IMG/VR virus record: IMGVR_UViG_2851976983_000001
Coordinates: 1-64,000 of that record
Source: a virus
Lineage: Duplodnaviria > Heunggongvirae > Uroviricota > Caudoviricetes
Direction: 5' to 3' (one strand)
Length of the DNA: 64,000 nt
In this document: positions 52,033-53,072 of the stretch, piece after piece
How positions within the stretch are numbered: position 1 is the first letter of the stretch
How the letters are laid out: each line of letters begins with the position of its first letter
Position numbers and translations under genes: made by a program
Notes under the pieces: model-generated
The model's input: only the letters and a program-made list of their open reading frames with translations
What the model was told of the DNA's origin: nothing
The model's database searches: none

Positions 52033-52049
52033 GGATGTATGGAATCATC
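52033..52049. repeat. 17-bp direct repeat copy 1 (GGATGTATGGAATCATC)
   Basis: Identical to 53056-53072; contains the 12-mer GTATGGAATCAT of the palindrome arm at 47036-47047. Confidence 0.7.
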
Positions 52050-52309
52050 CATGTTGTGAAACCAGGGGCTACATAGGCAACAATGATTTCACCAGAGGGT
52101 TAAAGAATCCTGCTTTCACAACGTTGAGGCCGCTGAACCGATTTATGTTCGACCCAACATATTGATCAGTCACTACAGCTCTGTGGAATCACCTGTATGA
52201 TTAAAAGAAAAACAGTGACCTCAACGTTGTGCGCTGGCTAACCAAGCCAGCCGGGTTACGTCGCCGCTTTTAACCCAAGATTAAACGACATAAGTAATGG
52301 AAATGACGT

Positions 52310-52382
52310 AACAGGATGGACGGTCAGCTGGCTGAAACCGGGATGATGGAATGGAATGAGGAAACCAACCGTCCATCCTGTT
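52310..52382. repeat. 17-bp inverted repeat with about 40-nt loop
   Basis: GTAACAGGATGGACGGT ... ACCGTCCATCCTGTTAC; followed by hairpin AGGGCATG...CATGCCCT. Confidence 0.55.
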
Positions 52383-52616
52383 ACTTCATCGAATAGGGCA
52401 TGGGTGGTGCAACATGCCCTATCCTGCGTTCTGAAATCACACTCGCTCAGTGTGTCCCATTTCGGTGACGAGGCTGGAAACTGACCTCGCTGGTGTTTGG
52501 CTTCTTAGGCTACTGCCAGGTACGTATCTTCGTTTGCAGTTATATTTAACGTTCAAACAGTCGCATCTCAACGAAAACAAGTGAATCTTATACGTATTAA
52601 ATAAGTAAGTAAATGC

Positions 52617-52922
52617 TTATTTTTCTGTGGCTCGTTCAGTTGCTATCTTTTTGATCAAACTCACCTTCTGTTCCGGCGTTCTCGTGATGATGGCCGTAAA
52701 ACGCTTCGCATGAATAGTGATAGTTTCGTTCTCCTTCAGTTCACCGTAGTGAGTCTCCAGCAGAGAACCCAGGCGCCACAGGCCGTCGTCTATGCGTTTA
52801 TGGCTGGCAAATCTGATCAGCAGTAGCTTTACGATTAACTGACCAATGTAAAAGGCATATCCGAAGCCGGCCGCCACAAGGTAGGTTACCAGCCACCAGT
52901 AGAAAGAGGTCAAATTGCTCAT
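52617..52922 (-). CDS. membrane protein (101 aa)
   Basis: N-terminal hydrophobic FYWWLVTYLVAAGFGYAFYIGQLIV. Confidence 0.45.
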   Translation of the reverse strand: MSNLTSFYWWLVTYLVAAGFGYAFYIGQLIVKLLLIRFASHKRIDDGLWRLGSLLETHYGELKENETITIHAKRFTAIITRTPEQKVSLIKKIATERATEK

Positions 52923-53071
52923 TTCCGCACTCCCGTCTCGTGAACAACCCGATACAGACGCTTACCGATGCGAAGCGTTTTGGTTTCCAGTTCCTGCCTG
53001 ACCATATCGCGACAGATACTGAAGCCGAGGGCCACGCCCCCAGCAAAAGATAATAGGATGTATGGAATCAT
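52919..53071 (-). CDS. small membrane protein (50 aa)
   Basis: Hand translation MIPYILLSFAGGVALGFSICRDMV...; start lies inside 17-bp repeat copy 2. Confidence 0.35.
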   Translation of the reverse strand: MIPYILLSFAGGVALGFSICRDMVRQELETKTLRIGKRLYRVVHETGVRK

Positions 53072-53072
53072 C
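53056..53072. repeat. 17-bp direct repeat copy 2 (GGATGTATGGAATCATC)
   Basis: Identical to 52033-52049. Confidence 0.7.

What the first reader, a model, noticed from the sequence alone, without database searches (positions are those of the whole stretch)
52033..53072. Recombinase-arm 12-mer recurs as 17-bp direct repeats flanking a 1-kb small-membrane-protein cassette
GGATGTATGGAATCATC occurs identically at 52033-52049 and 53056-53072. Both copies contain GTATGGAATCAT, the arm of the palindromic site at 47036. Three chance occurrences of a 12-mer in 64 kb are very unlikely. The repeats bracket a segment encoding two small membrane proteins. The upstream copy includes the start MIPYIL of one gene and the downstream copy is a 7-codon relic of the same start. 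This suggests recombinase-mediated insertion or deletion, or duplication by homologous exchange.
Basis: seen in the sequence. Interest (0 to 1): 0.55.

Follow-up and report, generated by a model that had tools for sequence, protein, structure and literature searches.

The report
Conserved orphan recombinase half-sites
The 17-base repeat is real but does not mark a mobile cassette: it is two of three solitary, letter-perfect copies of the binding arm of a lox-like recombination site, which a whole family of SSU5-type phage-plasmids keeps in fixed places (inside its DNA polymerase gene, on a small gene's start codon and upstream of a tRNA) for a purpose not yet known.

Summary
The window is an E. 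coli SSU5-like phage-plasmid. In detail: GGATGTATGGAATCATC is exact at 52033 and 53056.

The cassette, indel or duplication reading fails. The 1-kb segment is invariant backbone in all 31 diverged loci that carry both copies and in 230 of 258 E. coli records. The exceptions examined are IS insertions. The flanks share no homology, neither copy has a second arm, and the spacer-side bases differ.

The link to the recombinase holds. The palindrome (13+7+13) lies 23-110 bp upstream of the tyrosine recombinase gene in every homologue examined but one. Its arms are invariant, its asymmetric 7-bp spacer takes at least 9 forms, and the arm sequence changes with the recombinase clade.

The three solitary copies are conserved at the nucleotide level: there is no synonymous change in four polymerase codons across about 34 distinct sequences. 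Best reading (about 0.42): orphan, non-crossover recombinase-binding sites, as in Tn5401 TnpI or XerD/XDS. Main rival (about 0.28): a 15-nt RNA-RNA pairing between polymerase mRNA and the two repeat-bearing transcripts.

The "cassette" also holds an unannotated, covariation-supported structured RNA of about 360 nt.

The parts
52033..52049 (+). Orphan half-site 1, intergenic. The conserved 15-mer GATGTATGGAATCAT is at 52034-52048. It lies ~170-195 nt upstream (in the minus sense) of tRNA-Asn, between two conserved hairpins.
   Evidence: The 12-mer is invariant in 26 of 27 distinct flank contexts (SSU5 has T4->C).
53056..53072 (+). Orphan half-site 2. Its complement is the stop of the 70-aa gene plus the ATG ATT CCA TAC ATC start of the 50-aa gene.
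   Evidence: Invariant apart from two transitions: TAC->TAT (L126, L140) and ATG->GTG (L107 type).
40985..41001 (-). Orphan half-site 3, in sense orientation inside the dnaE-like DNA polymerase gene (codons TGT ATG GAA TCA, about codons 86-89, within a variable loop).
   Evidence: No synonymous variation in 39 collected sequences (about 34 of them polymerase), while every flanking degenerate codon varies.
47016..47048 (.). Lox-like core site AATGATTCCATAC-ATAGTAG-GTATGGAATCATT (13+7+13), the inferred crossover site of the recombinase.
   Evidence: Arms are invariant, there are at least 9 asymmetric spacer variants, and the site is always 23-110 bp upstream of int.
45814..46917 (-). Tyrosine recombinase (367 aa) without the N-terminal arm-binding domain of its P4-type relatives.
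   Evidence: Its Cyrano orthologue is expressed about 5x above background in the LF82/Cyrano plasmid state.
46300..46311 (-). Doubtful fourth site inside int: GTTTGGAATCAA here and GTATGGAATCAA in Klebsiella- and Yersinia-type relatives. It encodes VWNQ and is probably a coding coincidence.
52919..53071 (-). 50-aa small membrane protein gene (PHROG 6302, function unknown).
52617..52922 (-). 101-aa small membrane protein gene (PHROG 4507, function unknown).
52218..52578 (-). Unannotated conserved structured RNA (core ~360 nt), more conserved than the neighbouring genes.
   Evidence: Of 100 predicted pairs, 96.5% of cells pair; 21 pairs show compensatory change against 7.9+-1.9 in shuffles (0/500). 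Conserved G-U pairs are valid only on the minus strand. No Rfam hit.
52048..52127 (-). Conserved hairpin (arms 52048-52066 and 52109-52127) abutting orphan site 1. Its distal arm can alternatively pair with 52213-52231.
   Evidence: The arms change in a compensatory way between lineages. In L079 the arm differences give G-U pairs only on the minus strand.
51794..51868 (-). tRNA-Asn (GTT).
47105..47124 (-). Intrinsic terminator after grxA, upstream of the palindrome. It argues that the palindrome is not read through from the grxA side.
47049..51750 (.). Variable cargo region that begins exactly at the outer edge of the int-distal arm.
   Evidence: The palindrome-to-orphan distance is 1.7-7.3 kb. 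SSU5 lacks the region. Y. pestis carries caf1 here.

Best explanation
The palindrome at 47016-47048 is the simple, lox-like crossover site of the adjacent tyrosine recombinase. That enzyme most likely serves plasmid multimer resolution and, secondarily, exchange of the adjacent cargo region. The two 17-mers of the finding, together with a third copy in the polymerase gene, are orphan half-sites. Each is a single copy of the recombinase-binding arm with no partner arm and no shared crossover spacer. I propose that they bind one recombinase monomer each and are not substrates for strand exchange. In this reading purifying selection keeps them because recombinase bound there does something other than recombination. 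The likeliest role is regulatory or architectural, in the plasmid state: the recombinase is made then, while the polymerase gene and the small-gene operon are silent.

Shown: the motif, its positions, its nucleotide-level conservation, its identity to the arm, and the coupling of arm sequence to the Int clade.

Inferred: that Int binds the palindrome and the orphans.

Speculative: what that binding achieves (roadblock, looping to the core site, or titration).
For: 1. Identity of 12/12 nt between the three orphans and both arms cannot be chance.
2. The palindrome belongs to Int. It lies 23-110 bp upstream of int in phage-plasmids and in unrelated Erwinia and metagenome plasmids that lack the neighbouring HTH regulator. 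Arms are GTATGGAATCA where Int is at least 56% identical and GTCTGGAGTCA where it is 43-52% identical; Photorhabdus has a hybrid.
3. Invariant arms with at least 9 asymmetric 7-bp spacers are the signature of a tyrosine-recombinase core site.
4. Int has the catalytic domain and conserved R185, K211, R284, H307 and Y316/Y321. It lacks an arm-type DNA-binding domain, so only core-type recognition is available.
5. Orphans exist only in the clade whose arms have that sequence. There they are present in every locus that spans the positions.
6. The polymerase copy sits in a variable protein loop yet has no synonymous change in four codons. The preceding codon switches between Gly and Arg while keeping GA.
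7. The palindrome lies between a terminator and the constant int-proximal flank, so it is probably untranscribed. That makes a DNA-protein link the simplest one.
8. Each orphan has the orientation of the nearer core arm.
9. In LF82/Cyrano lysogens int is at 5x background, while pol and the 50-aa gene are at background.
10. There are precedents for the kind. Tn5401 carries an extra TnpI-binding motif near each transposon end, and TnpI binding modulates transcription (PMC7157771). XerD binding sites unload SMC (Karaboja 2021, cited in PMC10945525).
Against: - No binding data exist.
- The orphans share a 15-mer (GAT + 12-mer), and the extra GAT falls where the palindrome has variable spacer bases. 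The constraint on orphans is therefore not identical to that on the arms.
- SSU5 has no Int homologue yet keeps all three orphans, one with a T->C change. The deletion may be recent, since SSU5 is ~97% identical.
- The sister clade with GTCTGGAGTCA arms has no convincing orphans.
- No function can be named with confidence.
- Orientation relative to transcription is not uniform, which argues against a simple orientation-dependent roadblock.
Confidence: 0.42

Rival explanations
1. RNA-RNA pairing network. Polymerase mRNA carries X' = GAUGUAUGGAAUCAU. Minus-strand transcripts carry the exact complement X = AUGAUUCCAUACAUC twice: on the start codon of the 50-aa gene, and in a linker between two conserved hairpins downstream of the structured RNA and upstream of tRNA-Asn. 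In this reading X-bearing RNA (a 3' part of the structured RNA, or the tRNA leader) pairs with polymerase mRNA, or polymerase mRNA occludes the 50-aa start. That would couple replication functions to the small-gene operon.
For: - The conserved unit at all three orphans is a 15-mer, longer than the arm and shifted towards the spacer side.
- The copies have the strand arrangement needed for pairing between co-directional transcripts.
- The intergenic copy sits just 3' of a hairpin whose covariation is compatible only with the minus-strand RNA, next to a covariation-supported structured RNA.
- In the Nissabacter-type locus L107, X is followed by a GC hairpin and a U-run.
- The three deviations seen in X copies (T4->C in SSU5, G1->A in L126 and L140, T12->C in L107) would each leave a G-U wobble with X'. 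By my rough estimate this has about 3-6% probability by chance.
- The tRNA region is transcribed in lysogens.
Against: - It does not explain why the sequence equals the Int arm. The palindrome lies behind a terminator and upstream of the constant int flank, so it is probably not in RNA.
- No transcript ends are known.
- The flanks beyond the 15-mer do not covary between partners.
- Y. pestis pMT1-type plasmids lost the intergenic copy but keep the other two.
- The target lies ~255 nt inside the coding sequence, which is an unusual place for sRNA control.
- No Rfam family matches.
Confidence: 0.28
2. The two 17-mers are recombination scars or active sites that flank an insertable or excisable 1-kb cassette. 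Alternatively they arose by duplication of the 50-aa gene start through homologous exchange.
For: The direct repeats contain the recombinase arm. The region next to the palindrome is a hot spot of gene turnover.
Against: - The segment is present in 31 of 31 distinct loci with both copies and in 230 of 258 E. coli records (551 of 781 PLSDB plasmids at 80% coverage or more). The two exceptions I inspected are IS26 and ISEcp1 events.
- Both copies occupy orthologous positions across Escherichia, Salmonella, Klebsiella, Yersinia, Serratia and Nissabacter-type elements.
- There is no second arm.
- The spacer-side 7-mers differ: ATTGGAT against ATAGGAT here, and by more in other genomes.
- There is no flank homology.
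- The variable region ends before the repeats, at about 51750.
Confidence: 0.03
3. The 12- to 15-mer is the operator of another DNA-binding protein, for example a P1 C1-like or mycobacteriophage 'stoperator'-like repressor such as the HTH protein encoded at 45433-45819. That protein would bind asymmetric sites dispersed in early genes, with the palindrome as a bivalent operator.
For: - The sites are asymmetric and dispersed, with one palindromic pair, all within the early or replication region.
- The HTH gene is syntenic with int in phage-plasmids and is expressed in lysogens.
- SSU5 lacks both the regulator and int.
Against: - The palindrome persists next to int in plasmids that lack the HTH gene (L110, L114).
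- The 13+7+13 geometry, with half-site centres 20 bp apart and a freely varying asymmetric spacer, fits a recombinase core better than an HTH dimer.
- No copy lies in the regulator's own divergent promoter region.
- No convincing promoters overlap the orphans.
Confidence: 0.1
4. One-armed crossover sites of the shufflon type. As in R64 Rci/sfx, one conserved arm plus a 7-bp spacer would suffice, and recombination between inverted copies (polymerase copy against the two right-hand copies) would invert ~11-12 kb as a switch.
For: The polymerase copy is inverted relative to the other two. In Cyrano-type genomes the polymerase and 50-aa copies share 19-20 nt including the 7-mer ATGAGAT. That sfx sites have one conserved arm is from my own knowledge and was not checked here.
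Against: The spacer-side 7-mers differ between the would-be partners in most genomes. None of about 45 loci that span the region shows the inverted arrangement. Inversion would split the polymerase gene.
Confidence: 0.04

Closest known systems
Cre/loxP of phage-plasmid P1, and FLP/FRT or R-recombinase-type simple sites
   Same: A tyrosine recombinase gene lies next to a site made of two perfect inverted arms (13 bp) around a short asymmetric spacer. The element is a plasmid prophage, where such a system resolves multimers. The recombinase lacks an arm-type binding domain.
   Different: The spacer is 7 bp rather than 8. The recombinase is not Cre-like in sequence: there is no PDB hit, and its nearest relatives are P4-type integrases. 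P1 is not known, to my knowledge, to keep solitary lox arms inside essential genes.
TnpI with the IRS of Tn4430 and Tn5401
   Same: The same ~12-bp recombinase-binding motif is used as inverted core arms and as extra non-crossover copies. In Tn5401 one extra copy lies near each transposon end, kilobases from the core, and TnpI binding also modulates transcription (PMC7157771).
   Different: The host and element type differ. There the accessory DR1 and DR2 motifs adjoin the core and impose resolution selectivity. Here the orphans lie 5-6 kb away, inside or at the start of genes, and no function is known.
XerD binding sites (XDS) around dif in Bacillus subtilis
   Same: Solitary half-sites of a tyrosine recombinase, near the full site, act without recombination by unloading SMC (Karaboja et al. 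2021, as cited in PMC10945525).
   Different: That is a chromosomal terminus system acting through SMC-ScpAB. There is no evidence for such a partner here.
Trans-acting antisense control and type I toxin-antitoxin pairs (e.g. tisB/istR-1, zorO/orzO, shoB/ohsC; from my own knowledge)
   Same: A short exact repeat has one copy on the translation start of a ~50-aa hydrophobic protein and a second copy in a nearby non-coding region.
   Different: A direct DNA repeat would need the second copy to be transcribed from the opposite strand. No convincing + strand promoter was found, and the structural evidence favours the minus strand. The complementary partner on the same strand is in the polymerase gene.

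Membership tests
Tyrosine recombinase with a simple inverted-arm core site (lox/FRT/dif type) | Protein has the tyrosine-recombinase catalytic domain | tested here: met
   PF00589 scores 39.9 bits against a cut-off of 27.1. P4-type integrases are distant homologues.
Tyrosine recombinase with a simple inverted-arm core site (lox/FRT/dif type) | Catalytic residues R-K-H-R-H/W-Y | tested here: inconclusive
   R185, K211, R284 and Y316/Y321 are invariant and H307 is conserved. The first His is Arg (R281), as in one P4-type relative.
Tyrosine recombinase with a simple inverted-arm core site (lox/FRT/dif type) | Two inverted binding arms around a 6-8 bp asymmetric spacer, with arms conserved and spacer free to vary | tested here: met
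   13+7+13 geometry; arms invariant; at least 9 spacer variants, all asymmetric.
Tyrosine recombinase with a simple inverted-arm core site (lox/FRT/dif type) | Site linked to the recombinase gene, with specificity co-varying | tested here: met
   A perfect-arm palindrome lies 23-110 bp upstream of int in 7 of the 8 homologue loci examined; Photorhabdus (L113) has an imperfect hybrid. Two of these are non-phage plasmids. The arm type follows the Int clade.
Tyrosine recombinase with a simple inverted-arm core site (lox/FRT/dif type) | Recombination between two such sites | not testable with these tools
   Needs an in vivo or in vitro assay.
Excisable or insertable cassette bounded by recombination sites (att-flanked element, integron cassette) | A complete site (two arms) at each boundary | tested here: not met
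   The 12 nt at 7-nt spacing from each orphan match the arm at about 2/12 (read). No second palindrome occurs in any locus.
Excisable or insertable cassette bounded by recombination sites (att-flanked element, integron cassette) | Identical crossover (spacer) sequence in the two partner sites | tested here: not met
   ATTGGAT against ATAGGAT here. The 7-mers differ in 19 of the 20 genome types tabulated, and neither equals the palindrome spacer.
Excisable or insertable cassette bounded by recombination sites (att-flanked element, integron cassette) | Segment variably present among relatives | tested here: not met
   Present in 31 of 31 loci and 230 of 258 E. coli records. The exceptions inspected are IS insertions.
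Duplicated gene start (paralogous 5' ends) | Residual homology beyond the repeat | tested here: not met
   Local alignment of the 150-nt flanks scores below the shuffle mean on both sides.
Accessory or orphan recombinase-binding motifs (TnpI DR motifs, XerD XDS) | Motif identical to a core arm, solitary, and kept by selection | tested here: met
   12/12 identity with the arms. The motif is invariant at orthologous positions, and four polymerase codons show no synonymous change.
Accessory or orphan recombinase-binding motifs (TnpI DR motifs, XerD XDS) | Bound by the recombinase and functional without strand exchange | not testable with these tools
   Needs EMSA, ChIP and genetics.
Trans-acting antisense RNA or type I toxin-antitoxin | Complementary RNA made from the second repeat copy (opposite strand) | tested here: inconclusive
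   On the + strand there are only weak -10-like hexamers that lack the key A at position 2. Hairpin wobble pairs favour the minus strand.
Trans-acting antisense RNA or type I toxin-antitoxin | Membership of a described toxin or sRNA family | tested here: not met
   No hit in Pfam or NCBIfam, only function-unknown PHROGs, and no Rfam hit.
Shufflon-type one-armed sites (Rci/sfx) | Conserved spacer shared by all sites, and inversion variants in populations | tested here: not met
   The spacer-side 7-mers differ. The order and orientation of the sites are identical in all loci.

The most novel reading that the evidence does not exclude
The plasmid's multimer-resolution recombinase, or an RNA that shares its site sequence, doubles as a regulator of the phage part of the element. 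In this reading letter-perfect copies of the recombination-site arm were written by selection into a variable loop of the replicative DNA polymerase gene, onto the start codon of a small membrane protein, and into the leader shared by a large structured RNA and a tRNA. Together they would form a circuit that ties plasmid maintenance to silencing of phage replication genes. That kind of recombinase-site moonlighting has not been described for phage-plasmids.
Probability: 0.25. Interest if true: 0.75.

Novelty: new variant of a known kind. Interest (0 to 1): 0.55.

Why it matters
SSU5-like phage-plasmids are common in Enterobacteriaceae: 781 PLSDB plasmids match this segment. They include Y. pestis pMT1-type plasmids and carriers of blaCTX-M. 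How they control plasmid versus lytic replication is essentially unknown.

A motif kept invariant across genera, against codon degeneracy, inside the replicative polymerase gene and identical to the recombinase-site arm is a concrete, testable handle on that control.

The analysis also defines the likely lox-like site of the family. That site is useful for understanding why cargo such as the F1 capsule operon, anti-defence genes, toxins and highly expressed morons accumulates exactly at its edge.

It also exposes a new ~360-nt structured RNA. For the finding as originally framed, the practical message is negative: there is no mobile 1-kb cassette here.

Tried and rejected
- **Second arm.** I looked for a degenerate second arm at 7-nt spacing next to each orphan. 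None was found (about 2/12 matches).
- **Shared crossover sequence.** I tested whether the orphans share a spacer with each other or with the palindrome. Mostly they do not, so they are not crossover partners.
- **Promoter reading.** TATGgAATCAT can be read as an extended -10 element, and -10-like hexamers lie 5-7 nt upstream of the intergenic copy. The consensus scans found nothing above shuffle expectation. The upstream hexamers are not conserved at the polymerase copy and lack the key A at position 2. Cyrano's highly expressed gene next to the palindrome brings its own AT-rich promoter region.
- **Known families.** Rfam was searched at E up to 10, along with Pfam, NCBIfam and PHROGs and PDB sequences. 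None names the RNA, the small proteins or a close recombinase structure.
- **Literature.** A full-text search for the motif returned only unrelated primer sequences.
- **More species.** The genome-contig scan with CobT was unproductive: one unrelated hit.
- **Orphans in the sister clade.** The only near-match (GTCTGGA[T/C]TCA, in the AAA ATPase gene) varies at the nucleotide level and looks coding-driven.
- **Other sequence resemblances.** IHF, DnaA, Ter, sigma-54 and downstream-box resemblances were considered by eye and dropped.
- **Helix-11 loop.** A 7-nt resemblance between the motif and the variable loop of helix 11 of the structured RNA is not conserved, so I dropped it.
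Full report
**What the window is.** The region is 100% identical to plasmid p503829_100 of E. coli 503829. From window position 51754 onward it is 97.6% identical to Salmonella phage SSU5. It is therefore an SSU5-type phage-plasmid. All genes around the finding are on the minus strand. In order they are: ligase, 58-aa, 70-aa, 50-aa and 101-aa genes, a ~750-nt non-coding stretch, tRNA-Asn, a ~4.7-kb variable block (phoH, grxA and others), the palindrome, a tyrosine recombinase with a convergent HTH regulator, a 70-aa gene, CobT, an AAA ATPase and a dnaE-like polymerase.

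**Check of the observation.** The 17-mer is exact at 52033-52049 and 53056-53072, and no shuffle reproduces it.
- The chance expectation is 0.0076 exact hits.
- The remaining 36 kb of the plasmid holds no further copy, even with one mismatch.
- The copy at 53071 is the true start of a 50-aa membrane-protein gene and overlaps the stop of the 70-aa gene.
- The copy at 52049 is intergenic.

**The cassette reading fails.**
- In 31 distinct loci from diverged relatives (55-97% identity) both copies are present, 986-1549 bp apart, with the same content between them.
- In E. coli, 230 of 258 matching records carry the whole segment in one piece. In PLSDB the figure is 551 of 781.
- The two incomplete cases I opened are IS26 and ISEcp1-blaCTX-M insertions.
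- In Y. pestis, insertion of the caf1 operon removed the intergenic copy.
- There is no homology beyond 17-20 nt on either side of the repeat.
- Neither copy has a partner arm.
- The 7 nt on the spacer side differ between the copies and from the palindrome spacer in most genomes.
- In 51 CobT-anchored loci, every member of this clade that spans the positions shows the same pattern of sites and orientations. None has a fused copy, an inversion or a second palindrome.

**The palindrome is a recombinase core site.**
- In about 100 IMG/VR loci the arms (A)ATGATTCCATAC are invariant, while the 7-bp spacer takes at least nine asymmetric forms.
- Sequence on the int-distal side diverges completely from the first or second base beyond the arm.
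- Int homologues at 43-62% identity from Nissabacter-type, Serratia, Xenorhabdus, Providencia and Erwinia elements and from a metagenome plasmid all have a 12+7+12 palindrome 23-110 bp upstream of int. This holds even in ordinary plasmids that lack the HTH regulator.
- The arms are GTATGGAATCA where Int is at least 56% identical and GTCTGGAGTCA where it is 43-52% identical. Photorhabdus has a hybrid.
- Int has the catalytic domain and conserved R185, K211, R284, H307 and Y316/Y321, but an Arg at the first His position.
- Int lacks the N-terminal arm-binding domain of its P4-type relatives. It should therefore recognise only core-type arms.
- A strong terminator follows grxA just before the palindrome. 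By eye, an int promoter candidate (TTGATC, 17 nt, TAATAT) lies in the constant flank on the int side. The palindrome is thus probably a DNA site and not part of an RNA.

**The solitary copies are selected at the nucleotide level.**
- At the same three positions the 12-mer is identical in Escherichia, Salmonella, Klebsiella, Yersinia, Serratia and Nissabacter-type elements, while the flanks vary.
- In the polymerase gene it occupies TGT ATG GAA TCA in a loop whose neighbours change amino acid. Across 39 collected sequences (about 34 of them polymerase) these four codons show no synonymous variant, whereas every neighbouring degenerate codon shows two to four.
- In the sister clade this loop has a different sequence and no site.
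- The conserved unit at all three orphans is really a 15-mer, GAT plus the 12-mer.
- A fourth near-copy inside int (VWNQ) is not conserved at synonymous positions and is probably coincidental.

**Mechanism.** Because the 12-mer equals the arm, and the arm tracks the recombinase, the simplest common factor is Int itself.
- I therefore read the orphans as non-crossover Int-binding half-sites.
- There are precedents for the kind. Tn5401 has an extra TnpI-binding motif near each transposon end, and TnpI binding modulates transcription (PMC7157771). XerD binding sites unload SMC in B. subtilis (cited in PMC10945525).
- In the LF82/Cyrano lysogen transcriptome, int is at about 5x background, the regulator at about 10x and the tRNA region at about 15x. 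The polymerase gene, the ligase gene and the 50-aa gene are at or below background. Int is therefore present when these genes are silent.
- What the bound Int would do (roadblock, looping to the core site, or titration) is speculation.

**The main rival is an RNA duplex.**
- Polymerase mRNA carries GAUGUAUGGAAUCAU. The two other copies put its exact complement into minus-strand transcripts.
- The intergenic copy lies directly 3' of a hairpin that is conserved by compensatory change. In L079 the arm differences are G-U pairs only on the minus strand.
- The three deviations seen in these copies would each leave a G-U wobble.
- This model accounts for the 15-mer better than the Int model does, but it does not explain the identity with the Int arm.
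- The two models are not mutually exclusive.

**What else the "cassette" contains.**
- Positions ~52218-52578 (-) are more conserved than the flanking genes.
- They fold into a multi-helix structure with 96.5% of cells paired. Of 100 pairs, 21 show compensatory change against 7.9+-1.9 in shuffles (0/500) and 0-9 when the partner columns are slid. Many conserved G-U pairs are valid only on the minus strand.
- No Rfam family matches.
- The 3' strand of its closing helix can alternatively pair with the hairpin next to the intergenic orphan.

**Verdict.** The link to the recombinase arm is supported. The cassette, indel and duplication interpretations are rejected. What remains is an unexplained, strongly selected set of orphan recombination-site arms: a new variant of a known kind, with moderate interest.

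Noticed in passing
window 52218-52578 (-), with flanking hairpins out to 52048 and 52623: An unannotated, highly conserved structured RNA lies between the 101-aa gene and tRNA-Asn. It is more conserved than the neighbouring genes. Of 100 predicted pairs, 21 show compensatory change and 96.5% of cells pair, and its G-U pairs are specific to the minus strand. It has no Rfam family. It is also present at ~95% identity in Y. pestis pMT1-type plasmids.
   Followed up: partly
window 47049-51750; L003 14268-15146; L168 10257-16000; L108; L111; L112: The DNA that starts at the outer edge of the int-distal arm of the palindrome is a cargo hot spot. It holds grxA and phoH here, the very highly expressed CYRAN_43 in phage Cyrano, and the F1 capsule (caf1) operon in Y. 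pestis. Elsewhere it holds a cloacin-type colicin with immunity gene, Tad2/Acb2-like anti-defence genes, a YafO toxin or an ADP-ribosyl toxin-like gene. This suggests site-specific cointegration at the palindrome followed by homologous resolution.
   Followed up: partly
L002 (SSU5) compared with window 44870-51750: Phage SSU5 lacks the whole block that carries the 70-aa gene, the HTH regulator, int, the palindrome and the cargo, and it has no Int homologue anywhere. Loss of the putative lysogeny and maintenance module may explain why it is propagated as a lytic phage. Its intergenic orphan carries the only T->C change seen at that site.
   Followed up: partly
L006 (rest of the plasmid), record 40003-52391: IS2, IS100 and an IS3-family element interrupt tail-fibre and host-specificity genes, which are annotated as pseudogenes. 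This particular phage-plasmid is therefore probably defective as a phage.
   Followed up: no
window 47973-48167 (+): A sub-threshold Rfam match to Yersinia sRNA Ysr251 (57.9 bits against a gathering score of 100, E = 6e-13) lies antisense to the 5' part of phoH and the end of the gene upstream of it.
   Followed up: no
window 51710-51792 and 51616-51635: A perfect 20-nt inverted repeat with a 43-nt loop lies immediately downstream of tRNA-Asn. It has the same loop length as hairpin 52303-52389 in the structured RNA. A canonical terminator follows it. This is where homology with SSU5 resumes.
   Followed up: no
window 45814-46917 (-), residue 281: The first catalytic His of the tyrosine-recombinase motif is Arg (PRDLRRT) throughout the SSU5-type Int family and in one P4-type relative. 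The N-terminal arm-binding domain of P4-type integrases is absent.
   Followed up: partly
L166 (E. coli W170 plasmid) and L165 (E. coli I3 plasmid): ISEcp1-blaCTX-M-199 and IS26-associated DNA are inserted into the conserved non-coding RNA region of otherwise typical relatives. Resistance genes therefore enter this family here by transposition.
   Followed up: no
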